49,244 bases of DNA from the IMG/VR virus record IMGVR_UViG_2526164598_000014. The stretch is one strand, 5' to 3'. Each line of letters starts with the position of its first letter. Within the stretch, counting starts at the first letter, position 1. A program made the position numbers and the translations under genes. Source of the stretch: a virus. Lineage: Duplodnaviria > Heunggongvirae > Uroviricota > Caudoviricetes. Of the stretch, positions 9,120-45,251 are shown in pieces. The notes beneath the pieces are model-generated. The model had not been told where the DNA came from. It did no database searches and saw only the letters and a list, made by a program, of their open reading frames with translations.

Positions 9120-9264
9120 ACGGATAGTCCTGGTATTGTTCCATCACATCCTGAGCATGCTCTTCGAACTCTTTAGACTGGCCCCCTGAATCTCCAGACA
9201 ACCAATATCACTTAAATAAGTGATAGTCTTAATACTAGTTTTTAGACTAGTCATTGGAGAGCAG

Positions 9265-9630
9265 ATGATTGATGTCTTAGGACCGGAGAAACGCAGACGG
9301 CGTACTACACAGGAAAAGATCGCTATTGTTCAGCAGAGTTTTGAACCGGGAATGACGGTCTCCCTTGTTGCCCGGCAACACGGTGTGGCAGCCAGCCAGT
9401 TATTTCTCTGGCGCAAGCAATACCAGGAGGGAAGTCTTACTGCTGTGGCCGCAGGAGAGCAGGTCGTTCCTGCCTCTGAACTTGCTGCTGCCATGAAGCA
9501 GATTAAAGAACTCCAGCGCCTGCTCGGCAAAAAAACGATGGAAAATGAACTCCTTAAAGAAGCCGTTGAATACGGGCGTGCAAAAAAGTGGATAGCGCAC
9601 GCGCCCTTATTGCCCGGGGATGGGGAGTAA
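9265..9630 (+). CDS. insC: IS2 InsC (orfA, HTH transposase N-terminal protein)
   Basis: [41 protein letters not shown]... matches IS2 InsC as recalled. Confidence 0.9.
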
Positions 9631-10493
9631 GCTTAGTCAGCCGTTGTCTCCGGGTGTCGCGTGCGCAGTTGCACGTAATTCTCAGACGAACCGATGACTG
9701 GAAAGATGGTCGCCGCAGCCGTCACTCAGATGATACGGATGTGCTTCTCCGTATACACCATGTTATCGGAGAGCTGCCCACGTATGGTTATCGTCGGGTA
9801 TGGGCGCTGCTTCGCAGACAGGCCGAACTTGATGGTATGCCTGCGATCAATGCCAAACGTGTTTACCGGATCATGCGCCAGAATGCGCTGTTGCTTGAGC
9901 GAAAAACCGCTGTACCGCCATCGAAACGGGCACATACTGGCAAAGTGGCCGTGAAAGAAAGCAATCAACGATGGTGCTCTGACGGGTTCGAGTTCCGCTG
10001 TGATAACGGAGAAAAACTGCGAGTCACGTTCGCGCTGGACTGCTGTGACCGTGAGGCACTGCACTGGGCAGTCACTACGGGCGGCTTCGACAGTGAAACA
10101 GTACAGGACGTAATGCTGGGAGCGGTGGAACGCCGCTTCGGCAACGAGCTTCCGGCGTCTCCAGTAGAGTGGCTGACGGATAATGGTTCATGCTACCGGG
10201 CTAATGAAACACGGCAGTTTGCCCGGATGTTGGGGCTTGAACCGAAGAACACGGCGGTGCGGAGTCCGGAGAGTAACGGCATAGCAGAGAGCTTCGTGAA
10301 AACGATAAAGCGTGACTACATCAGTATCATGCCTAAACCAGACGGGTTAACGGCAGCAAAGAACCTTGCAGAGGCGTTCGAGCATTATAACGAATGGCAT
10401 CCGCATAGTGCACTGGGTTATCGCTCGCCACGGGAATATCTGCGGCAGCAGGCCAGTAATGGGTTAAGTGATAACAGGTGTCTGGAAATATAG
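9588..10493 (+). CDS. insD: IS2 InsD (orfB, DDE transposase catalytic part)
   Basis: 301-aa ORF matching IS2 InsD as recalled; overlaps insC in -1 frame as expected for the fusion transposase. Confidence 0.9.
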
Positions 10494-10668
10494 GGGCAAA
10501 TCCACTCTTCAAATTCTTCTTCCATATATCACCTTAAATAGTGGATTGCGGTAGTAAAGATTGTGCCTGTCTTTTAACCACATCAGGCTCGGTGGTTCTC
10601 GTGTACCCCTACAGCGAGAAATCGGATAAACTCTATTCACCCCTACAGAGAGCAAAAGAGAAACGCCG

Positions 10669-11945: not shown

Positions 11946-11977
11946 AAAGAAAACCCGGCGCTGAGGCCGGGTTTTTC
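11946..11977. terminator. Bidirectional intrinsic terminator closing the cI-proximal operon (tImm-like)
   Basis: Hairpin CCCGGC-GCTGAG-GCCGGG at 11954-11971 flanked by A-run and T-run; directly after stop of 258-aa gene. Confidence 0.65.
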
Positions 11978-12753
11978 TAGGCTACCAGAGACTCAATCCA
12001 AGAGTCTCTGGTATGGAATGGCAACACTCGTGCGGTATCATTAAATAGTAGTGATAGTTGCTGTAGCTCAGGTGTTAACCCATCGCTGTCAACTATTACA
12101 AATCTATTGTTTATGTCAGGAACGACCTGACTTAAGTCAACAATCTTCCCAACTGTTGAGTGGGCAGTATTCCATCCCTTACTGCTGGCAAGGCTTACCG
12201 TAAACCCGCGTTTTGGTGGTATTAGTCGAGACTCATTCCTTAGCGTTAACGGAACAGTAATGTTATGCCCACTAATACCTTTCACTTTTTCCTTTAAGGC
12301 TAGTCGCTTCCCAAGCCCTGCTGATTTTAAGTAACTGATTACACATTTTTCGAACTTATCGTCTTTGACCTCAGCATACCAATCAGCAGTTTGGGCGGAT
12401 GCAAGAATCCCACCACGAATAACATTTGCAGTTACCTGTCCAACGGACGACTCATCTGCCCACGCAGATATCTCTCCAGAATCATTTAATGAAATTCCTT
12501 GCGAAGCGAGTGATGACCTAATCAGATCAATTTTCTTTTTAGTCAGGTGGATGCCGCGTGATTCAATATTCATCAATGTATCGCAGTAGTCTGTAACCCT
12601 ATACTGACCACTCATCTCTTGAACGAATACACTTATCTGCTCACAATCATCGTAGTATGTGAAGGGACTAATAACGCGCAGCAACGTGTCGCTCATTGGG
12701 TGGCATTCAAACCCGAGCTTAGATATGACTGTTGAACACGTTACATTTCCCAT
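11977..12753 (-). CDS. Hypothetical protein, 258 aa, second gene of operon in the rexAB slot
   Basis: ATG at 12751-12753; overlaps upstream 180-aa gene by 13 nt; AT-rich; no motif I can recognise. Confidence 0.7.
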   Translation of the reverse strand: MGNVTCSTVISKLGFECHPMSDTLLRVISPFTYYDDCEQISVFVQEMSGQYRVTDYCDTLMNIESRGIHLTKKKIDLIRSSLASQGISLNDSGEISAWADESSVGQVTANVIRGGILASAQTADWYAEVKDDKFEKCVISYLKSAGLGKRLALKEKVKGISGHNITVPLTLRNESRLIPPKRGFTVSLASSKGWNTAHSTVGKIVDLSQVVPDINNRFVIVDSDGLTPELQQLSLLFNDTARVLPFHTRDSWIESLVA

Positions 12754-13283
12754 GATAGCTGACCTGATTTATCTTGATTAGGTAAAGGTGGGCTGCCTTC
12801 ATATATGATATTAAGCGCCTCGCAAAAATAATTCCAGTAGCCAAAAAAATCATCTGGCTTGATGTTCGTTTCAAGCTTAAGTGCAATTTCTTCCCCAGCT
12901 GATTCGAAGTACATGTGATAGTGAGGACCTCGAGCCACCTCAACAAAATCTGGATGGTTCACTATAGATTTATTACGGTGTGGCTTGTTATCCGCAGGGT
13001 ACGGGTCAAGCGCGTAAATGCGCCTGTCATGAAGAAACATCACAAATGAAATCTTCACTATATCCACCCCTTCAACGATAGGAGGACGCCAGTGAAGCAT
13101 AAATCTTATGCCTGTGATTGGGTTGCCAATTTCATCAAAAGCTTTGAGATCCAATTTAAACCAGATTGGGGTTCGTCCCTCACTTCCGGTCCATGTAACT
13201 CCGCTAAAAGTTACTTTTTTCAAGCGAGTAATAGCTTGGTCAACCTCTTTCTGGGTAGGCTTAAAGTCGCCTTTTTTAGCCAC
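12741..13283 (-). CDS. Hypothetical protein, 180 aa, first gene of operon in the rexAB slot
   Basis: GTG at 13281-13283 (first in-frame ATG only at codon 62); 46 bp downstream of cI stop; no motif I can recognise. Confidence 0.6.
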   Translation of the reverse strand: MAKKGDFKPTQKEVDQAITRLKKVTFSGVTWTGSEGRTPIWFKLDLKAFDEIGNPITGIRFMLHWRPPIVEGVDIVKISFVMFLHDRRIYALDPYPADNKPHRNKSIVNHPDFVEVARGPHYHMYFESAGEEIALKLETNIKPDDFFGYWNYFCEALNIIYEGSPPLPNQDKSGQLSWEM

Positions 13284-13329: not shown

Positions 13330-13983
13330 TCACCCAAACGTCTCTTCAGGCCACTGACTAGCGATAACTTTCCCCACAACGGAACAACTCTCATTGCATG
13401 GGATCATTGGGTATTGTGGGTTTAGTGGCTGTAGAAACACCTGACCGCTATCCCTGATCAGTTTCTTGAAGGTAAACTCATCACCACCAAGTCTGGCTAT
13501 ACAGAAATCGCCTGGCTCAACAGCCTGCTCAGGGTCAACCAGAATTAACATCCCGTCAGGAAAGCTGGGCTTGGAACCTGTTGGTGCGGTCATTGAGTTA
13601 CCTTCAACCTCAAGCCAGAATGCAGAGTCACTGGCTTTTTTGGTTGTGCTTACCAATCTCTCCGCATCGCCTTTGGTAAAGGTTCTGAGTTCTGGAGAGA
13701 ACATCCCAGCCTGAACATGAGAAAAAACAGGGTACTCATATTGTTTTTTAACTGGGGCCGATGAGTATTCGCCAACAGGTGAAAATGTCCCGTCGTGGTT
13801 GAATGATATGTTATCAATACCAAGGTATTTAAACACCACACCAATATCACTAAGAGATGGATGACGAGATCCGCGCAACCAGTGTCCAATCCCACCCTGC
13901 GTCATACCTAGCTCTTCGGCTAACTTCTCTTGAGTTATGCCGAGCTCTTTCATTCTGGATCTAGCCAGTTCATACCATTTCAT
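13330..13983 (-). CDS. cI: CI-type repressor (N-terminal HTH, C-terminal LexA-like S24 autopeptidase domain)
   Basis: HTH segment ([20 protein letters not shown]) and C-terminal domain with GNSM and K motifs; divergent from cro across an operator region; start taken at MKWYEL (ATG 13981-13983) with AAGGA 7 nt upstream, alternative ATG at 13987-13989. Confidence 0.85.
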
Positions 13984-13989
13984 TTTCAT

Positions 13990-14099
13990 GTCCTTATTAT
14001 TACGCTTTGTACTGGAACCATCCATGCACAATGTGTATTTTTACTTGTATTCGTAAAGTACATATTGTATTTTTTATTCGTGTTTACTATGGAGGGCAT
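13990..14099. promoter_or_regulatory. OR region: divergent pRM/pR promoters and operators between cI and cro
   Basis: 110-bp AT-rich spacer with repeated TACA-N3-TGTA / TACAA-N-TTGTA palindromes (e.g. GTAAAGTACATATTGTA). Confidence 0.55.
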
Positions 14100-14315
14100 A
14101 TGAGCAACCTACGAAAATATCGAGAGTCACTGAATATCTCTCAAACAACACTTGCTAAGGCAGTTGGATGCACACAGGGAGCTATCGGACATTGGGAATC
14201 TGGTCGTCGCTTCCCAGACCTTAAAACATGCCGTGCTCTTGTTGCGTGCCTAAACAAGTTAGGCGCAAAAGTCAGTCTTGATGACGTGTTCCCGCCGGAA
14301 CACAAAGCCGCTTAA
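14100..14315 (+). CDS. cro: Cro-type HTH repressor, 71 aa
   Basis: ATG at 14100 preceded by GGAGGG; HTH (ISQTTLAKAVGCTQGAIGHWESG); longer TTG-start ORF in track is an artefact. Confidence 0.8.
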   Translation: MSNLRKYRESLNISQTTLAKAVGCTQGAIGHWESGRRFPDLKTCRALVACLNKLGAKVSLDDVFPPEHKAA

Positions 14316-14325
14316 TAAGCGGATC

Positions 14326-14371
14326 CGCTCTTTGTAACAACGGACATTCGTCCTACGTCGCTGAAAAGCGA
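14326..14371 (+). promoter_or_regulatory. nutR: Putative nutR (boxA CGCTCTTT and boxB hairpin TCGCT-GAAA-AGCGA)
   Basis: boxA-like octamer at 14326-14333 and GAAA-loop hairpin at 14358-14371, between cro and cII. Confidence 0.5.
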
Positions 14372-14456
14372 GTTCCAAGATATCTGACCAACTAAGGCCA
14401 TATGCGTTTCCACGCATACCTTTCAACTAACTATTCACTATTGGAAATCTTAAGAA

Positions 14457-14753
14457 ATGGAAAGAACAAGTTACAGCAAACTATCACAGCGTGACGTTGA
14501 TCGCGCAGAAACAGATTTACTTATCAATCTGTCAGCTATTACCCAGCGCGGTCTGGCAAAGATGATTGGCTGTCATGAATCGAAGATAAGCAGAACGGAC
14601 TGGAGATTTATTGCTTCGGTCTTGTGTGCTTTCGGAATGGCATCAGACATCAGTCCGATTAGCAGGGCTTTTAAGTATGCGCTTGATGGACTCACCAATA
14701 AAAAACGCCCGGCGGCAACCGAGCGTTCTGAACAAATCCAGATGGAGTTCTGA
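14457..14753 (+). CDS. cII: CII transcriptional activator
   Basis: 98-aa ORF; C-terminal half matches lambda CII as recalled (…LTNKKRPAATERSEQIQMEF). Confidence 0.9.
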   Translation: MERTSYSKLSQRDVDRAETDLLINLSAITQRGLAKMIGCHESKISRTDWRFIASVLCAFGMASDISPISRAFKYALDGLTNKKRPAATERSEQIQMEF

Positions 14754-14775
14754 GGTCATTACTGGATCTATCAAC
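14697..14775 (-). ncRNA. oop: oop antisense RNA
   Basis: Reverse strand matches lambda oop (GTTGATAGATCCAGTAATGACCTCAGAACTCCATCTGGATTTGTTCAGAACGCTCGGTTGCCGCCGGGCGTTTTTTATT) including its terminator. Confidence 0.8.
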
Positions 14776-14785
14776 AGGAGTCATT

Positions 14786-15684
14786 ATGACAAATACAGCA
14801 AAAATACTCAACTTCGGCAGAGGTAACTTTGCCGGACAGGAGCGTAATGTGGCAGATCTCGATGATGGTTACGCCAGACTATCAAATATGCTGCTTGAGG
14901 CTTATTCGGGCGCAGATCTGACCAAGCGACAGTTTAAAGTGCTGCTTGCCATTCTGCGTAAAACCTATGGGTGGAATAAACCAATGGACAGAATCACCGA
15001 TTCTCAACTTAGCGAGATTACAAAGTTACCTGTCAAACGGTGCAATGAAGCCAAGTTAGAACTCGTCAGAATGAATATTATCAAGCAGCAAGGCGGCATG
15101 TTTGGACCAAATAAAAACATCTCAGAATGGTGTATCCCTCAAAACGAGGGAAAATCCCCTAAAACGAGGGATAAAACATCCCTCAAATTGGGGGATTGCT
15201 ATCCCTCAAAACAGGGGGACACAAAAGACACTATTACAAAAGAAAAAGAAAAGATTATTCGTCCGAGAATTCTGGCGAATCCTCTGACCAGCCAGAAAAC
15301 GACCTTTCTGTGGTGAAACCGGATGCTGCAATTCAGAGCGGCAGCAAGTGGGGGACAGCAGAAGACCTGACCGCCGCAGAGTGGATGTTTGACATGGTGA
15401 AGACCATCGCGCCATCAGCCAGAAAACCGAATTTTGCAGGGTGGGCTAACGATATCCGCCTGATGCGTGAACGTGACGGACGTAACCACCGCGACATGTG
15501 CGTGCTGTTCCGCTGGGCATGCCAGGACAACTTCTGGTCCGGTAACGTGCTTAGCCCGGCCAAACTCCGCGACAAGTGGACCCAGCTCGAAATCAACCGT
15601 AACAAGCAACAGGCAGTCGTGACAGCCAGCAAACCAAAACTCGACCTGACAAACACAGACTGGATTTACGGGGTGGATCTATGA
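14786..15684 (+). pseudogene. O: Lambda O replication initiator, frameshifted (1-nt deletion in A-tract around 15238-15253)
   Basis: N-terminal 150 aa in frame 1 (ends 15316) and lambda-O C-terminal 140 aa in the next frame (to 15684); total span 899 nt, one short of 900. Confidence 0.85.
15134..15219. repeat. ori: ori-lambda iterons (four ~18-bp O-binding repeats ATCCCTCAAAACGAGGGA and variants)
   Basis: Four tandem near-palindromic repeats inside O, followed by the AT-rich tract. Confidence 0.85.
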
Positions 15685-16382
15685 AAAACATCGCCGCACA
15701 GATGGTTAACTTTGACCGTGAGCAGATGCGTCGGATCGCCAACAACATGCCGGAACAGTACGACGAAAAGCCGCAGGTACAGCAGGTAGCGCAGATCATC
15801 AACGGTGTGTTCAGCCAGTTACTGGCAACTTTCCCGGCGAGTCTGGCTAACCGTGACCAGAACGAACTGAACGAAATCCGCCGCCAGTGGGTTCTGGCTT
15901 TCCGGGAAAACGGGATCACCACAATGGAACAGGTTAACGCAGGAATGCGCGTAGCCCGTCGGCAGAATCGACCATTTCTGCCATCACCCGGGCAGTTTGT
16001 TGCATGGTGCCGGGAAGAAGCATCCGTTATCGCCGGACTGCCAAACGTCAGCGAGCTGGTTGATATGGTTTACGAGTATTGCCGGAAGCGAGGCCTGTAT
16101 CCGGATGCGGAGTCTTATCCGTGGAAATCAAACGCGCACTACTGGCTGGTTACCAACCTGTATCAGAACATGCGGGCCAATGCGCTTACTGATGCGGAAT
16201 TACGCCGTAAGGCCGCAGATGAGCTTGTCCATATGACTGCGAGAATTAACCGTGGTGAGGCGATCCCTGAACCAGTAAAACAACTTCCTGTCATGGGCGG
16301 TAGACCTCTAAATCGTGCACAGGCTCTGGCGAAGATCGCAGAAATCAAAGCTAAGTTCGGACTGAAAGGAGCAAGTGTATGA
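15681..16382 (+). CDS. P: Lambda P replication protein (helicase loader)
   Basis: 233-aa ORF matching lambda P as recalled. Confidence 0.95.
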   Translation: MKNIAAQMVNFDREQMRRIANNMPEQYDEKPQVQQVAQIINGVFSQLLATFPASLANRDQNELNEIRRQWVLAFRENGITTMEQVNAGMRVARRQNRPFLPSPGQFVAWCREEASVIAGLPNVSELVDMVYEYCRKRGLYPDAESYPWKSNAHYWLVTNLYQNMRANALTDAELRRKAADELVHMTARINRGEAIPEPVKQLPVMGGRPLNRAQALAKIAEIKAKFGLKGASV

Positions 16383-18224: not shown

Positions 18225-18434
18225 CCCATCTCAATCCCTTCAATACCTGAAAGGAAGCATAGAGCGGGCTTCAATGTGCACAGAGTGGATTCTATCTAGG
18301 TTTAGCGCATACAGAAGATTGCCGGTAAAGGGCATGCCAAGCAAGTCGATGCTGCATATGCAAAAGAATGCGCGCTGGAAGGTATGGCGAGAACACAGGT
18401 TATCTGGCTGAAAGAGGGGGTTATTAAGGCGTGA
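18217..18434 (+). pseudogene. ninF-like 5' end joined out of frame to the 3' end of another gene (remnant)
   Basis: First 10 residues as lambda NinF ([10 protein letters not shown]) then divergence; a different frame (18306-18434) carries a plausible C-terminus ...[26 protein letters not shown] whose TGA overlaps the rusA GTG. Confidence 0.35.
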
Positions 18435-19587: not shown

Positions 19588-20670
19588 TTAGAACTGGTAA
19601 ACCATACCTACAGCAACGATATCATCGGTAGCAACGCCAGATGCTTTCGTGAAATCGCTCTTATCAATCAGGTTGATTTTGTAATCAACAAAAGTGGACA
19701 TATTTTTGTTGAAGTAATAGGTTGCACCTACATCAATATATTCAACCAGGTCCTGATCACCCCACGCACCCAAGTCTTTTCCTTTAGATTGCAGGTAAGC
19801 AACGGACGGACGCAGACCGAAGTCGAACTGATATTGTGCAACTACTTCGAAGTTTTGTGCTTTGTTGGCAATATGGTTATTACCAAAAACAGTCATGTTC
19901 TGGGTTTCAGAATAGGTGGTAGCCAGATAGATGTTGTTCGCATCATATTTCAGACCAGCTGCCCATACTTCAGCATTTTGACCAGATGCATTCAGGCTGT
20001 TGTTACCGTAGATAACCTGATTATTAGTGCGGTCAGATTTAGCATAGGTTGCACCTACACCGAATCCTTCATACTCATAAGTAGTGGAGAAACCGAAACC
20101 ATCACCATTAGCTTCAGTTACGTCAGTGCGGTCATTTTTACCCTGATACTGAGCAGCAAAGTTCAGACCATCAACCAGACCAAAGAAGTCGTTGTTACGA
20201 TAAGTTGCAACACCAGTGGTGCGACCAGTCATGAACACATCTGTTTGGGTCCAGGTATCGCCACCGAATTCTGGCAGAACGTCAGTCCACGCACCGATGT
20301 CGTATGCTACACCGTAGTTACGGCCGTAATCGATTGAGCCGTAGTCACCGAATTTCAGGCCTGCAAATGCAAGACGGGTTTTGTCTTTGGAGGAACCTTG
20401 AGATTCAGCGCGGTTGCCTTTGAATTCATATTCCCACTGACCGAAACCAGTCAGTTGATCGTTGATTTGGGTTTCACCTTTGAAGCCAAGACGGGCATAA
20501 GTAGTATCACCATCATCTGCATCATTAGAGGAGAAGTAGTGCTTAGCATTAACTTTCCCGTACAGATCCAGCTTGTTACTGTCTTTATTATAAATTTCAG
20601 CTGCCTGAGCAGACATCGCCATCAGTACTGATGCAGCTACAGCAGAAATTGCCACTGTTAATTTTTTCAT
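19588..20670 (-). CDS. nmpC: Phage-borne general porin of the OmpC/OmpF/NmpC family, 360 aa
   Basis: Signal peptide plus C-terminal ...VGMVYQF porin signature; sits between Q and holin on the opposite strand as nmpC does in DLP12. Confidence 0.85.
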
Positions 20671-21459: not shown

Positions 21460-21796
21460 TGCCTCCATCATTACGAAAAGCCGTTGCTGCTGCTATTGGT
21501 GGCGGAGCAATTGCTATAGCATCAGTGTTAATCACTGGCCCAAGTGGTAACGATGGTCTGGAAGGTGTCAGCTACATACCATACAAAGATATTGTTGGTG
21601 TATGGACTGTATGTCACGGGCATACAGGAAAAGACATCATGCTCGGTAAAACGTATACCAAAGCAGAATGCAAAGCCCTCCTGAATAAAGACCTTGCCAC
21701 GGTCGCCAGACAAATTAACCCGTACATCAAAGTCGATATTGTCAACGCCAAGATTATTGGCCGTTTTTCGCCATTTTTAATGTCCGCTATTGGTCA

Positions 21797-23763
<1,967 letters not shown>

Positions 23764-24081
23764 GAGTGTTCCCTTTGTGGTGTAGGAACCTTAAGGAAAC
23801 AACATGTTGGGTGGAGCGGACAATCCAAATGGTGAATTACTGTCTTATATCATTGGCGCTGACAATATACCGGAAACAATGCGCGGCGCTCTTTACTCAT
23901 TCGTTTACAACGTGGGTGCTGGCAATTTCAGAACATCGACGCTTCTTCGCAAAATAAACCAGGGCGATATCAAAGGCGCATGTGATCAGCTACGTCGCTG
24001 GACATATGCTGGCGGTAAGCAATGGAAAGGTCTCATGACTCGTCGTGAGATTGAGCGTGAAATCTGTTTGTGGGGTCAGCA

Positions 24082-37533: not shown

Positions 37534-40087
37534 ACCGGTAGGCGATCTGGTCGTTGATTTGAGTCTGGATGCGGCCAGATTTGACGAGCAGATGGCCAGA
37601 GTCAGGCGTCATTTTTCCGGTACGGAAAGTGATGCGAAAAAAACAGCGGCAGTCGTTGAACAGTCGCTGAGCCGACAGGCGCTGGCTGCACAGAAAGCGG
37701 GGATTTCCGTCGGGCAGTATAAAGCCGCCATGCGTATGCTGCCTGCACAGTTCACCGACGTGGCCACGCAGCTTGCAGGCGGGCAAAGTCCGTGGCTGAT
37801 CCTGCTGCAACAGGGGGGGCAGGTGAAGGACTCCTTCGGCGGGATGATCCCCATGTTCAGGGGGCTTGCCGGTGCGATCACCCTGCCGATGGTGGGGGCC
37901 ACCTCGCTGGCGGTGGCGACCGGTGCGCTGGCGTATGCCTGGTATCAGGGCAACTCAACCCTGTCCGATTTCAACAAAACGCTGGTCCTTTCCGGCAATC
38001 AGGCGGGACTGACGGCAGATCGTATGCTGGTCCTGTCCAGAGCCGGGCAGGCGGCAGGGCTGACGTTTAACCAGACCAGCGAGTCACTCAGCGCACTGGT
38101 TAAGGCGGGGGTAAGCGGTGAGGCTCAGATTGCGTCCATCAGCCAGAGTGTGGCGCGTTTCTCCTCTGCATCCGGCGTGGAGGTGGACAAGGTCGCTGAA
38201 GCCTTCGGGAAGCTGACCACAGACCCGACGTCGGGGCTGACGGCGATGGCACGCCAGTTCCATAACGTGACGGCGGAGCAGATTGCGTATGTTGCTCAGT
38301 TGCAGCGTTCCGGCGATGAAGCCGGGGCATTGCAGGCGGCGAACGAGGCCGCAACGAAAGGGTTTGATGACCAGACCCGCCGCCTGAAAGAGAACATGGG
38401 CACGCTGGAGACCTGGGCAGACAGGACAGCACGGGCATTCAAATCCATGTGGGATGCGGTGCTGGATATTGGTCGTCCTGATACCGCGCAGGAGATGCTG
38501 ATTAAGGCAGAGGCTGCGTTTAAGAAAGCAGACGACATCTGGAATCTGCGCAAGGATGATTATTTTGTTAACGATGAAGCGCGGGCGCGTTACTGGGATG
38601 ATCGTGAAAAGGCCCGTCTTGCGCTTGAAGCCGCCCGAAAGAAGGCTGAGCAGCAGACTCAACAGGACAAAAATGCGCAGCAGCAGAGCGATACCGAAGC
38701 GTCACGGCTGAAATATACCGAAGAGGCGCAGAAGGCTTACGAACGGCTGCAGACGCCGCTGGAGAAATATACCGCCCGTCAGGAAGAACTGAACAAGGCA
38801 CTGAAAGACGGGAAAATCCTGCAGGCGGATTACAACACGCTGATGGCGGCGGCGAAAAAGGATTATGAAGCGACGCTGAAAAAGCCGAAACAGTCCGGCG
38901 TGAAGGTGTCTGCGGGCGATCGTCAGGAAGACAGTGCTCATGCTGCCCTGCTGACGCTTCAGGCAGAACTCCGGACGCTGGAGAAGCATGCCGGAGCAAA
39001 TGAGAAAATCAGCCAGCAGCGCCGGGATTTGTGGAAGGCGGAGAGTCAGTTCGCGGTACTGGAGGAGGCGGCGCAACGTCGCCAGCTGTCTGCACAGGAG
39101 AAATCCCTGCTGGCGCATAAAGATGAGACGCTGGAGTACAAACGCCAGCTGGCTGCACTTGGCGACAAGGTTACGTATCAGGAGCGCCTGAACGCGCTGG
39201 CGCAGCAGGCGGATAAATTCGCACAGCAGCAACGGGCAAAACGGGCCGCCATTGATGCAAAAAACCGGGGGCTGACTGACCGGCAGGCAGCGCGGGAAGC
39301 CACGGAACAGCGCCTGAAGGAACAGTATGGCGATAATCCTCTGGCGCTGAATAACGTCATGTCAGAGCAGAAAAAGACCTGGGCGGCTGAAGACCAGCTT
39401 TGCGGGAGCTGGATGGCAGGCCTGAAGTCCGGCTGGAGTGAGTGGGAAGAGAGCGCCACGGACAGTATGTCGCAGGTAAAAAGTGCAGCCACGCAGACCT
39501 TTGATGGTATTGCACAGAATATGGCGGCGATGCTGACCGGCAGTGAGCAGAACTGGCGCAGCTTCACCCGTTCCGTGCTGTCCATGATGACAGAAATTCT
39601 GCTTAAGCAGGCAATGGTGGGGATTGTCGGGAGTATCGGCAGCGCCATTGGCGGGGCTGTTGGTGGCGGCGCATCCGCGTCAGGCGGTACAGCCATTCAG
39701 GCCGCTGCGGCGAAATTCCATTTTGCAACCGGAGGATTTACGGGAACCGGCGGCAAATATGAGCCAGCGGGGATTGTTCACCGTGGTGAATTTGTCTTCA
39801 CGAAGGAGGCAACCAGCCGGATTGGCGTAGGAAATCTTTACCGGCTGATGCGCGGCTATGCCACCGGCGGTTATGTCGGTACACCGGGCAGCATGGCGGA
39901 CAGCCGGTCGCAGGCGTCCGGGACGTTTGAGCAGAATAACCATGTGGTGATTAACAACGACGGCACGAACGGTCAGATAGGGCCACAGGCACTGAAGGCG
40001 GTTTATGACGTAGCCCGTAAGGCGGCAATGGATGTTGTGACCGGGCAGATGCGCGATGGTGGTCTGTTCTCCGGAGGTGGACGATGA
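37526..40087 (+). CDS. H: Tape measure protein H
   Basis: 853-aa ORF matching lambda gpH. Confidence 0.96.
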   Translation: MAEPVGDLVVDLSLDAARFDEQMARVRRHFSGTESDAKKTAAVVEQSLSRQALAAQKAGISVGQYKAAMRMLPAQFTDVATQLAGGQSPWLILLQQGGQVKDSFGGMIPMFRGLAGAITLPMVGATSLAVATGALAYAWYQGNSTLSDFNKTLVLSGNQAGLTADRMLVLSRAGQAAGLTFNQTSESLSALVKAGVSGEAQIASISQSVARFSSASGVEVDKVAEAFGKLTTDPTSGLTAMARQFHNVTAEQIAYVAQLQRSGDEAGALQAANEAATKGFDDQTRRLKENMGTLETWADRTARAFKSMWDAVLDIGRPDTAQEMLIKAEAAFKKADDIWNLRKDDYFVNDEARARYWDDREKARLALEAARKKAEQQTQQDKNAQQQSDTEASRLKYTEEAQKAYERLQTPLEKYTARQEELNKALKDGKILQADYNTLMAAAKKDYEATLKKPKQSGVKVSAGDRQEDSAHAALLTLQAELRTLEKHAGANEKISQQRRDLWKAESQFAVLEEAAQRRQLSAQEKSLLAHKDETLEYKRQLAALGDKVTYQERLNALAQQADKFAQQQRAKRAAIDAKNRGLTDRQAAREATEQRLKEQYGDNPLALNNVMSEQKKTWAAEDQLCGSWMAGLKSGWSEWEESATDSMSQVKSAATQTFDGIAQNMAAMLTGSEQNWRSFTRSVLSMMTEILLKQAMVGIVGSIGSAIGGAVGGGASASGGTAIQAAAAKFHFATGGFTGTGGKYEPAGIVHRGEFVFTKEATSRIGVGNLYRLMRGYATGGYVGTPGSMADSRSQASGTFEQNNHVVINNDGTNGQIGPQALKAVYDVARKAAMDVVTGQMRDGGLFSGGGR

Positions 40088-42429: not shown

Positions 42430-45251
42430 TGAAAAACGTTTATGTGAAACCGCCTCCGGGCGGTTTTGTCGTTTATGGAGCGTGAGGAATGGGTAAAGGC
42501 AGCAGTAAGGGGCATACTCCGCGCGAAGCGAAGGACAACCTGAAGTCCACGCAGTTGCTGAGTGTGATCGATGCCATCAGCGAAGGGCCGGTTGAAGGTC
42601 CGGTGGATGGATTAAAAAGCGTGCTGCTGAACAGTACGCCAGTGCTGGACAGTGAGGGGAATACCAATATCTCCGGCGTCACGGTGGTGTTCCGGGCCGG
42701 TGAGCAGGAGCAGACACCGCCGGAGGGATTTGAATCCTCCGGCTCCGAGACGGTGCTGGGTACGGAAGTGAAATACGACACGCCGATCACCCGGACCATC
42801 ACGTCGGCAAACATTGACCGACTGCGTTTTACCTTCGGCGTGCAGGCACTGGTGGAAACCACCTCAAAGGGGGACAGGAATCCGTCGGAAGTCCGCCTGC
42901 TGGTTCAGATCCAGCGTAATGGTGGCTGGGTGACGGAAAAAGACATCACCATTAAGGGCAAAACCACCTCGCAGTATCTGGCCTCGGTGGTGGTGGGTAA
43001 CCTGCCGCCGCGCCCGTTCAATATACGGATGCGCAGGATGACGCCGGACAGCACCACAGACCAGCTGCAGAACAAAACGCTCTGGTCGTCATACACCGAA
43101 ATCATCGATGTGAAACAGGGCTACCCGAACACGGCACTGGTCGGCGTGCAGGTGGATTCGGAGCAGTTCGGCAGCCAGCAGGTGAGCCGTAATTATCATC
43201 TGCGCGGGCGCATTCTGCAGGTGCCGTCGAACTATAGCCCGCAGACGCGGCAATACAGCGGTATCTGGGACGGAACGTTTAAACCGGCATACAGCAACAA
43301 CATGGCCTGGTGTCTGTGGGATATGCTGACCCATCCGCGCTACGGCATGGGGAAACGTCTTGGTGCGGCGGATGTGGACAAATGGGCGCTGTATGTCATC
43401 GGCCAGTACTGCGACCAGTCAGTGCCGGACGGCTTTGGCGGCACGGAGCCGCGCATCACCTGTAATGCGTACCTGACCACACAGCGCAAGGCGTGGGATG
43501 TGCTCAGTGATTTCTGCTCGGCGATGCGCTGTATGCCGGTATGGAACGGGCAGACGCTGACGTTCGTGCAGGACCGACCATCAGATAAGGTGTGGACCTA
43601 TAACCGCAGTAATGTGGTGATGCCGGATGATGGCGCGCCGTTCCGCTACAGCTTCAGCGCCCTGAAGGACCGCCATAATGCCGTTGAGGTGAACTGGATT
43701 GACCCGGATAACGGCTGGGAGACGGCGACAGAGCTTGTGGAGGACACGCAGGCCATTGCCCGTTACGGTCGTAACGTCACGAAGATGGATGCCTTTGGCT
43801 GTACCAGCCGGGGCAGGCACATCGCGCCGGGCTGTGGCTGATTAAAACAGAACTGCTGGAAACGCAGACCGTGGACTTCAGCGTGGGCGCAGAAGGGCTT
43901 CGCCATGTGCCGGGCGATGTCATTGAAATCTGTGATGATGACTATGCCGGTATCAGCATCGGCGGGCGCGTGCTGGCGGTAAACAGCCAGACCCGGACGC
44001 TGACGCTCGACCGTGAAATCACGCTGCCATTCTCCGGTACCACGCTGATAAGCCTGGTTGACGGAAGTGGCAATCCGGTCAGCGTGGAGGTTCAGTCCGT
44101 CACCGACGGCGTGAAGGTGAAAGTGAGCCGTGTTCCTGACGGCGTTGCTGAATACAGCGTGTGGGGGCTGAAGCTGCCGACGCTGCGCCAGCGCCTGTTC
44201 CGCTGCGTGAGTATCCGTGAGAACGACGACGGCACATATGCCATCACCGCCGTGCAGCATGTACCGGAAAAAGAAGCCATCGTGGATAACGGGGCGCACT
44301 TTGACGGCGACCAGAGCGGCACGGTGAATGGTGTCACGCCGCCAGCGGTGCAGCACCTGACTGCCGAAGTCACCGCAGACAGCGGGGAATATCAGGTGCT
44401 GGCGCGCTGGGACACGCCGAAGGTGGTGAAGGGCGTGAGCTTCCTGCTCCGTCTGACCGTAACAGCGGATGACGGCAGTGAGCGGCTGGTCAGCACGGCC
44501 CGGACGACGGAAACCACTTACCGCTTCACACAACTGGCGCTGGGGAACTACAGGCTGACAGTCCGGGCAGTAAATGCGTGGGGGCAGCAGGGCGATCCGG
44601 CGTCGGTATCGTTCCGGATTGCCGCACCGGCAGCGCCGTCGCGGATTGAGCTGACGCCGGGCTATTTTCAGATAACCGCCACGCCGCATCTTGCGGTTTA
44701 TGATCCGACGGTACAGTTTGAGTTCTGGTTCTCGGAAAAGCGGATTGCGGATATCAGGCAGGTTGAAACCACAGCACGCTATCTTGGCACGGCGCTGTAC
44801 TGGATAGCCGCCAGTATCAATATCAAACCGGGCCATGATTATTACTTTTATATCCGCAGTGTGAACACCGTTGGCAAATCGGCATTCGTGGAGGCTGTTG
44901 GTCAGCCGAGTGATGATGCATCCGGTTATCTGGATTTTTTCAAAGGCGAGATAGGGAAAACCCATCTGGCTCAGGAGCTGTGGACGCAGATTGATAACGG
45001 TCAGCTTGCGCCTGACCTGGCTGAAATCAGGACGTCCATTACGGATGTCAGCAATGAAATCACGCAGACCGTCAATAAGAAACTGGAAAACCAGAGTGCG
45101 GCAATTCAGCAGATACAGAAGGTTCAGGTTGATACAAATAATAACCTGAACAGCATGTGGGCTGTGAAGCTGCAGCAGATGCAGGACGGACGCCTTTATA
45201 TCGCGGGTATTGGTGCCGGTAGTAAGCGGCTCGTCAGAACCGTATTGATAT

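What the first reader, a model, noticed from the sequence alone, without database searches (positions are those of the whole stretch)
15230..15260. Replication initiator O inactivated by a 1-nt deletion in an A-tract next to the ori iterons
The O reading frame spans 899 nt instead of 900, with the N-terminal and C-terminal halves in adjacent frames that meet in the sequence ACAAAAGAAAAAGAAAAG just after the four ori iterons. Either this is a real homopolymer slip that leaves the prophage unable to replicate, or a sequencing error at a homopolymer.
Basis: seen in the sequence. Interest (0 to 1): 0.45.

Follow-up and report, generated by a model that had tools for sequence, protein, structure and literature searches.

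The report
Frameshifted lambda O gene in prophage
A lambda-like prophage sitting at the lambda attachment site of an E. coli draft genome has lost one A from the six-A run in the middle of its replication-initiator gene O, which turns O into an ordinary pseudogene in a prophage that is already broken by three insertion sequences.

Summary
O (14786-15684) is 899 nt. The run at 15243-15247 is A5, against A6 in phage lambda and in about 1,300 complete E. coli genomes. Adding one A restores a 299-aa O.

The product keeps 154 native residues, including the Pfam Phage_rep_O DNA-binding domain. It then gains 22 aberrant residues and stops at 15314-15316, so the P-binding C-terminal half is lost. Published lambda O nonsense mutants leaving 160, 205 or 294 residues are null, so this allele should be null too.

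The lost base lies in the AT-rich unwinding tract of ori, 24 nt after iteron 4, inside the classical r96 ori- deletion.

Real mutation or sequencing error is not settled without reads. I lean to real (about 0.6):
- A separate re-assembly of a public read set is identical.
- The same 176-aa product occurs in two other isolates.
- A5 is replicated in three O157:H7 assemblies.

Against this, the draft shows other homopolymer contractions, including a G5-to-G4 frameshift in J.

The prophage is defective regardless: an IS21-family element sits in the lysozyme gene and ISCro1 in J. NCBI annotation already flags the same A5 allele as "frameshifted" in five complete genomes. The finding is ordinary and of low interest. 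The one mildly notable point is that A6-to-A5 recurs on at least ten O sequences, while A7 was never seen.

The parts
14786..15684 (+). Lambda-type replication initiator gene O, 899 nt instead of 900 (pseudogene as assembled)
   Evidence: It is 98.8% identical to lambda O. It is 99.9% identical (the gap only) to intact 900-nt O genes in five complete E. coli genomes.
14786..15316 (+). Translatable N-terminal ORF of 176 aa: native residues 1-154, then 22 out-of-frame residues, stop TGA at 15314-15316
   Evidence: Pfam Phage_rep_O (PF04492) covers residues 22-115, E = 1.4e-36, and is intact.
15247..15684 (+). Remainder of O (native codons 155-299) in the -1 frame. This is the linker and the P-interacting C-terminal half, no longer joined to the N-terminus.
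   Evidence: frame-2 translation matches lambda O from RKDYSSENSG onward. Domain roles are from PMC6022878.
15243..15247 (+). The A5 run. It is A6 in lambda (39143-39148) and in nearly all relatives. This is the site of the 1-nt loss.
15134..15218 (+). The four ori iterons (15134-15151, 15154-15171, 15178-15195, 15201-15218)
   Evidence: Lambda annotation transferred through the alignment. The sequences are identical to lambda's.
15219..15260 (+). AT-rich unwinding tract of ori, which contains the A-run. It corresponds to the lambda segment removed by the ori- deletion r96 (39139-39153).
   Evidence: PMC6022878 and PMC7466680. The right-hand boundary is approximate.
15681..16382 (+). Replication gene P, intact at 233 aa. 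Its ATG overlaps the native O stop (ATGA). It now lies 365 nt downstream of the premature O stop.
   Evidence: The identical P protein is very widespread.
21740..23864 (-). IS21-family element (istA 22591..23763, istB 21797..22594) inserted in the prophage lysozyme gene
   Evidence: the alignment to strain F5 breaks at 21739/23865 with a 4-bp overlap. IstB_IS21 and rve domains, with the lysozyme split into 113-aa and 93-aa pieces.
45222..47920 (-). ISCro1 (IS66 family) inserted in the tail-tip gene J, with an 8-bp target duplication
43806..43813 (+). Second homopolymer frameshift in the window: a G4 run in J, against G5 in five relatives. It splits J into 42489..43841 and 43871..45331.

Best explanation
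A slipped-strand loss of one A from the A6 run in the middle of lambda-type gene O has made O a pseudogene. The run lies in the AT-rich tract of ori.

**What is shown.**
- The ribosome reads 154 native codons, which cover the whole iteron-binding domain.
- It then reads 22 wrong codons and stops 365 nt before P.

**What is inferred.**
- The product may still bind the iterons. It lacks the linker and the C-terminal half that recruits P-DnaB, so no helicase can be loaded at ori and the prophage cannot start theta replication after derepression.
- P translation, normally coupled to O through the overlapping ATGA, is probably reduced as well.

**Context.** The lesion is one of several in a decaying prophage integrated next to ybhC, at the lambda attachment site. 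The other lesions are an IS21-family element in the lysozyme gene, ISCro1 plus a frameshift in J, and an IS2-like element between ral and sieB.

**Possible selection (inferred).** Loss of O would be neutral, or mildly favoured, because it removes 'replicative killing' of the host by a prophage that can no longer complete a lytic cycle.
For: **The deletion and its consequence.**
- A5 against A6, and repair by one A.
- DNA-binding domain intact.
- N-terminal DNA-binding domain, flexible linker and C-terminal P-binding domain; Oam317 (160 aa), Oam8 (205 aa), Oam205 (294 aa) and a 35-codon C-terminal truncation are all null: PMC6022878.
- O binds the iterons through its N-terminal half: PMC4488673.

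**Evidence that the allele is real.**
- The window is 100% identical to GCA_000250355.2 AIHH01000020.1 over 20.5 kb.
- It is also 100% identical to a Logan re-assembly of SRR096911 over 11.3 kb, A5 included.
- The identical 176-aa product is encoded in GCA_000831715.2 and in a Logan assembly of DRR275243. These two isolates differ from each other by 3 SNPs, one G-run and one IS insertion. They differ from the window by 8 SNPs in the C-terminal half of O.
- In O157:H7, A5 together with a unique 23-bp iteron duplication is identical in two complete genomes from different laboratories and in one draft.
- No free-phage record carries A5 (0 of 142). This fits a lethal allele that survives only in prophages.

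**Other lesions in the window:**

**Selection idea.** Survivors of replicative killing are O/P mutants with small indels (PMC6022878).
Against: **Signs of homopolymer error in the draft.**
- Between 13330 and 15782 the window differs from strains WI2 and F5 by no substitution at all. The only differences are two homopolymer contractions, T7-to-T6 at 14070 and A6-to-A5. That pattern is typical of homopolymer miscalls.
- J carries a further unique G5-to-G4 contraction. Its 450-aa product was found in no assembly other than the NCBI one.

**Signs of error in other A5 contigs.**
- All 7 IMG/VR contigs with A5 come from early draft genomes, with IMG ids 2526-2537.
- A5-bearing contigs carry other homopolymer indels about four times more often than A6 controls: 7 in 27 kb against 35 in 515 kb.
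- One of them (L017) has two extra contractions that are absent from the finished genomes of the same lineage.

**Limits of the replication argument.** I could not learn the sequencing platform of SRR096911 or DRR275243. A re-assembly of the same reads cannot exclude a systematic undercall.
Confidence: 0.6

Rival explanations
1. Sequencing or assembly artefact. The strain really has A6 and an intact 299-aa O, and the draft consensus undercalled the homopolymer in the difficult context A4-G-A6-G-A4.
For: - Two homopolymer contractions and no substitutions across 2.4 kb against the nearest relatives.
- A third unique contraction in J, seen only in the NCBI assembly.
- A5 contigs in IMG/VR all come from early drafts and are enriched for other homopolymer indels.
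- L017 demonstrably contains such errors.
- The contig spans three multi-copy IS elements, which suggests long-read or paired-end technology of the 454 era. This last point is inference only.
Against: - An independent re-assembly of a public run gives the same A5, T6 and G5.
- The same truncated protein is present in two further isolates, sequenced separately.
- A5 is replicated in three O157:H7 assemblies, two of them finished.
- IMG genomes with neighbouring ids carry A6, so the site is not miscalled systematically in that batch.
- The prophage has unambiguous structural lesions (IS insertions with target duplications), so relaxed selection on O is expected.
Confidence: 0.33
2. The A5 allele is still functional. 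A -1 slip of tRNA-Lys on GAA_AAA_G re-reads one A and yields exactly wild-type O, so the frameshift is tolerated or even programmed.
For: - By sequence logic, a -1 slip at the AAA codon gives T-K-E-K-R-K-D-Y, identical to native O.
- A hairpin, the ori inverted repeat, begins 4-9 nt downstream.
- The allele recurs on many O backgrounds.
Against: - There is no X_XXY_YYZ heptamer in the zero frame. Only single-tRNA slippage on four As is possible, which from general knowledge is typically 1% or less.
- The downstream fold is not exceptional (z = -1.69).
- There is no Shine-Dalgarno-like element at a stimulatory distance.
- None of 142 phage records that match the probe carries A5.
- NCBI annotation calls the allele a frameshifted pseudogene.
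- A5 is rare: 5 of 1,741 places.
Confidence: 0.03

Closest known systems
Lambda O nonsense mutants (Oam317, Oam8, Oam205) and RK- ilr mutants with small indels in O
   Same: All are truncations of O downstream of the N-terminal iteron-binding domain, and all are replication-null. Oam317 stops at residue 160, six codons from this frameshift. The ilr survivors of replicative killing carry small insertions or deletions in O (PMC6022878).
   Different: Those are laboratory alleles of lambda itself. This one is a -1 homopolymer frameshift in a natural prophage, with a 22-residue aberrant tail. Its phenotype has not been tested.
Lambda ori- deletions r96 and r95 in the High-AT-rich region
   Same: The location matches: r96 removes lambda 39139-39153, which contains the A6 run at 39143-39148.
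   Different: r95 and r96 are in-frame deletions of 12 and 15 bp. They destroy ori in cis but leave an O protein that still complements. Here 1 bp is lost, so the protein is destroyed, and any effect on ori itself is unknown.
O pseudogenes annotated 'replication protein, frameshifted' in E. coli RM8426, ATCC 43888, Z1816, MLI104K2 and 2313
   Same: They have exactly the same A5 sequence over the 70-nt probe, and NCBI annotation flags each as a pseudogene.
   Different: They sit on other O alleles (312-aa six-iteron Stx-phage type, or a 23-bp iteron duplication), with different immunity regions and different host lineages.
Defective (cryptic) lambdoid prophages of E. coli
   Same: A prophage at a standard attachment site that accumulates IS insertions and frameshifts in replication, lysis and tail genes.
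   Different: Nothing of substance. This is a typical member. That such decay is common in E. coli lambdoid prophages is general knowledge and was not tested here.

Membership tests
Lambda-type replication initiator O with internal ori | N-terminal Phage_rep_O DNA-binding domain | tested here: met
   PF04492 covers residues 22-115, 125 bits against a cut-off of 28.7.
Lambda-type replication initiator O with internal ori | Four (or six) 18-bp iterons followed by an AT-rich tract inside the gene | tested here: met
   The four iterons are identical to lambda's at 15134-15218, and the AT-rich tract follows.
Lambda-type replication initiator O with internal ori | Partner gene P immediately downstream, with overlapping stop and start | tested here: met
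   P is at 15681..16382, 233 aa, with Pfam Phage_lambda_P and an ATGA overlap.
Lambda-type replication initiator O with internal ori | Uninterrupted ORF of 299-312 aa joining the DNA-binding and P-binding halves | tested here: not met
   The gene is 899 nt, with a frameshift after codon 154 and a stop at 15314-15316. It is therefore filed as a pseudogene of this family, not a functional member.
Programmed -1 ribosomal frameshift site | Slippery heptamer X_XXY_YYZ in the zero frame | tested here: not met
   The zero frame reads GAA_AAA_GAA, which allows only single-tRNA slippage.
Programmed -1 ribosomal frameshift site | Stable downstream stimulatory structure | tested here: inconclusive
   A hairpin formed by the ori inverted repeat is present. 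The fold of 15236-15310 is -14.2 kcal/mol, with z = -1.69 against shuffles.
Programmed -1 ribosomal frameshift site | Conservation of the shifted arrangement in functional phages | tested here: not met
   0 of 142 phage records have A5. 95 of 96 evaluable A6 loci have an intact O.
Homopolymer sequencing artefact | Not reproduced in independent data from the same or closely related strains | tested here: inconclusive
   It is reproduced in the Logan assembly of SRR096911 and in other isolates. Platforms are unknown, and the draft shows other unique contractions.

The most novel reading that the evidence does not exclude
The A6 run inside ori's AT-rich tract is a recurrent, deletion-biased weak point of lambda-type replication modules. 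On this reading, A6-to-A5 arises again and again on unrelated O alleles. It could be the commonest single way that E. coli silences, perhaps reversibly, the replication of resident lambdoid prophages, favoured because it abolishes replicative killing.

**Supporting counts.**
- At least 10 distinct O sequences carry A5, and in 8 of them it is the only lesion.
- A7 was never seen.
- Among A6 copies, only 1 of 96 O genes is broken elsewhere.
Probability: 0.12. Interest if true: 0.4.

Novelty: already known. Interest (0 to 1): 0.12.

Why it matters
It matters little. The result mainly tells an annotator to call 14786-15684 a frameshifted O pseudogene and to treat this prophage as defective. It should not be expected to replicate or to yield infectious particles on induction.

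It is also a caution. Homopolymer frameshifts in old draft assemblies cannot be read as biology without the reads.

The only wider point is small. The longest homopolymer of O lies in the origin's unwinding tract and seems to be where O most often breaks. That could be followed up cheaply across the many thousands of available E. coli genomes.

Tried and rejected
**Programmed or tolerated -1 frameshifting.** Rejected. There is no heptamer, the downstream fold is unremarkable, and A5 is absent from all phage records.

**Solved structure of O, to fix domain borders.** The Protein Data Bank search gave no match. I used Pfam and the literature instead.

**Sequencing platform of the source assembly.**
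- Searches for the WGS accessions found nothing.
- The paper on the diarrheagenic E. coli collection is not held. Whether the source belongs to that collection was only my guess from the accession prefix, and I make no such claim.

**Finding clone-mates through neighbouring proteins.**
- The P allele is too common to help: it is listed in 20,427 blocks.
- The same is true of the 180-aa neighbour of cI.
- The tail gene I look-up did not bring up the SRR096911 assembly.

**A7 alleles, as a test of symmetry.** None were found in IMG/VR. None were found with full-length identity in complete E. coli genomes. Both real slippage and long-read or flow-based errors are biased towards deletion, so this does not tell the two explanations apart.

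**Promoter scan of the cI-cro spacer around the T6 run.** It gave nothing usable.

Full report
**1. The observation**

Window 14786-15684 is a lambda-type O gene of 899 nt. The ORF list shows an N-terminal ORF at 14786..15316 (176 aa) and a C-terminal ORF at 15196..15684 in the adjacent frame.

A three-way alignment with lambda NC_001416 and E. coli strain G5 shows a single gap. The window has A5 at 15243-15247, where both others have A6 (lambda 39143-39148). Over the whole gene, G5 and four other complete genomes differ from the window by that gap alone (99.9%). Inserting one A gives an open 299-aa O.

The lambda annotation places the four iterons at 15134-15151, 15154-15171, 15178-15195 and 15201-15218. 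The run therefore begins 24 nt after iteron 4, inside the AT-rich tract.

**2. What the protein becomes**

Native residues 1-154 (ending ...TITKEK) are followed by 22 aberrant residues and a TGA at 15314-15316. The Pfam Phage_rep_O domain (residues 22-115) is intact in the truncated product. No solved structure of O exists to refine the domain borders.

The literature gives the domain roles:
- O binds the iterons through its N-terminal half (PMC4488673).
- The C-terminal region is the proposed P-binding domain, and a flexible linker joins the two (PMC6022878).
- O alleles that leave 160 (Oam317), 205 (Oam8) or 294 (Oam205) residues are null, as is one lacking the last 35 codons.

A product ending at native residue 154 should therefore be null for replication. 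This is an inference from those alleles, not a test.

P (15681..16382) is intact and normally overlaps the O stop (ATGA). It now lies 365 nt past the premature stop, so coupling and polarity effects on P are plausible. This too is inference.

**3. Position within ori**

The classical ori- deletion r96 removes lambda 39139-39153 and therefore includes this A-run. That in-frame deletion kills ori in cis, yet leaves an O protein that still complements. So these codons are dispensable for the protein, while the DNA matters for the origin.

Whether losing a single base pair affects unwinding is unknown. The AT-rich tract is not needed for O binding (PMC7466680).

**4. The surroundings**

The window begins in chromosomal ybhC, followed by int and xis, so this is a prophage at the lambda attachment site. 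Its source is GCA_000250355.2, contig AIHH01000020.1, which is 100% identical over 20.5 kb.

The prophage carries clear structural damage:
- An IS21-family element at 21740-23864 splits the lysozyme gene, with a 4-bp overlap at the junction.
- ISCro1 at 45222-47920 splits J, with an 8-bp duplication.
- An IS2-like element sits at about 9174-10503, between ral and sieB.
- J also has a G5-to-G4 frameshift at 43810, which is unique among five relatives.

The large head and tail genes otherwise have lambda-like lengths. The prophage is thus defective irrespective of O.

**5. Real or artefact?**

*Evidence for a real mutation*
- A Logan re-assembly of run SRR096911 is 100% identical to the window over 11.3 kb, including A5.
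- The exact 176-aa product is also encoded in GCA_000831715.2 and in a Logan assembly of DRR275243. These two isolates differ from each other by 3 SNPs, one G-run and one IS insertion.
- Those two isolates differ from the window by 8 SNPs in the C-terminal half of O. Upstream of 15405 they are identical to the window apart from the T-run at 14070. A5 therefore sits on at least two haplotypes, either by descent plus recombination or by recurrence.
- In O157:H7, two finished genomes from different laboratories and one draft share an identical O carrying both A5 and a 23-bp iteron duplication.
- IMG genomes with ids close to the source genome's carry A6, so the site is not systematically miscalled in that batch.

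*Evidence for an artefact*
- From 13330 to 15782 the window shows no substitution against strains WI2 and F5. The only differences are two homopolymer contractions, T7-to-T6 at 14070 and A6-to-A5.
- The J contraction was found only in the NCBI assembly.
- All seven A5 contigs in IMG/VR come from early drafts.
- A5 contigs have about four times as many other homopolymer indels as A6 controls: 7 in 27 kb against 35 in 515 kb.
- One of them (L017) has two contractions that the finished genomes of its lineage lack.

I could not determine the platforms of the runs. My estimate is about 0.6 real, 0.33 artefact.

**6. Recurrence**

| Collection | A5 | A6 | A7 |
|---|---|---|---|
| Complete E. coli genomes | 5 genomes with an exact match, out of 1,741 matching places in 1,311 genomes | nearly all the rest | 0 |
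| Phage records | 0 of 142 | not counted | not tested |

NCBI annotation flags all five A5 copies in complete genomes as "frameshifted".

At least ten different O nucleotide sequences carry A5. In eight of them it is the only lesion, and repair gives 299 or 312 aa. Among A6 loci, 95 of 96 evaluable O genes are intact. This run is the longest homopolymer in O, and the counts suggest it is the place where O most often breaks. How much of that is biology and how much is sequencing error remains open.

**7. Alternative reading: leaky frameshifting**

A -1 slip at GAA_AAA_G would give exactly native O. The case against it is strong:
- There is no canonical slippery heptamer.
- The downstream hairpin (the ori inverted repeat) is unexceptional.
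- No plaque-forming phage carries A5.

I give this about 0.03.

**8. Verdict**

This is a frameshifted pseudogene of a very well known gene, in a decaying prophage. The same allele is already flagged by standard annotation in other genomes. The kind is already known and interest is low (0.12).

The most novel reading not excluded is a recurrent, possibly selected and reversible inactivation hotspot in the origin's A-run. It is linked to escape from replicative killing (PMC6022878). I put its probability at about 0.12.

Noticed in passing
window 14064-14076 (T-run at about 14070): The window has T6 where all six compared relatives have T7 (G5, WI2, F5, L011, L013 and others). The run lies in the divergent cI-cro regulatory spacer, between the cI ATG at 14025 and the cro-like ATG at 14100. 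A 1-bp spacing change here could alter operator or promoter geometry, or it could be another homopolymer miscall. The Logan re-assembly also has T6.
   Followed up: partly
window 43806-43813 (J) and 42489-45331: Tail-tip gene J is frameshifted by G5-to-G4 at 43810, which is unique among five relatives with an intact J of 1159-1165 aa. The resulting 450-aa fragment is on record only in the NCBI assembly.
   Followed up: partly
window 21740-23864; 45222-47920; about 9174-10503: There are three insertion sequences inside the prophage. An IS21-family element lies in the lysozyme gene, with a 4-bp junction overlap. ISCro1 (IS66 family) lies in J, with an 8-bp duplication. An IS2-like element (121-aa and 301-aa ORFs) lies between ral and sieB. 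Related prophages L011 and L013 lack these or carry an IS elsewhere, so the insertions are specific to each lineage.
   Followed up: partly
window 18411-18420 (G-run just upstream of rusA at 18431): The G-run length varies among close relatives: G4 in L013, G5 in the window and L011, G6 in WI2 and F5. The tract is either hypervariable or error-prone.
   Followed up: no
window 11977-13283 (minus strand): A two-gene cassette lies between N and cI, in the position lambda uses for rexAB. It encodes a DUF1828 protein (258 aa) and a 180-aa protein with no Pfam hit. The cassette is widespread (listed in 4,551 blocks) and is combined with many different immunity and replication modules. L011 and L013 carry a different pair (126 aa and 33 aa) at the same place. 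It is a candidate exclusion or defence cassette. No defence-system library search was run.
   Followed up: no
window 19588-20670 (minus strand): The prophage encodes an OmpC-like porin (360 aa; Porin_1 and Porin_4 domains) between the Q antiterminator and the lysis genes. It is intact here and interrupted by an IS in strain WI2.
   Followed up: no
L004/L006/L017 (E. coli O157:H7 ATCC 43888, Z1816 and an IMG draft): The O157:H7 prophage remnant carries both A5 and a 23-bp duplication of an iteron unit in O. It has a truncated P fused next to tail-fibre genes. One A6 locus (L139), otherwise identical over about 5 kb, lacks both changes.
   Followed up: partly
L161 (GCA_900448535.1) and L094 (IMG/VR): Other truncated O genes (242 aa and 225 aa) occur with an A6 run, so O is occasionally broken at other positions too.
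   Followed up: no
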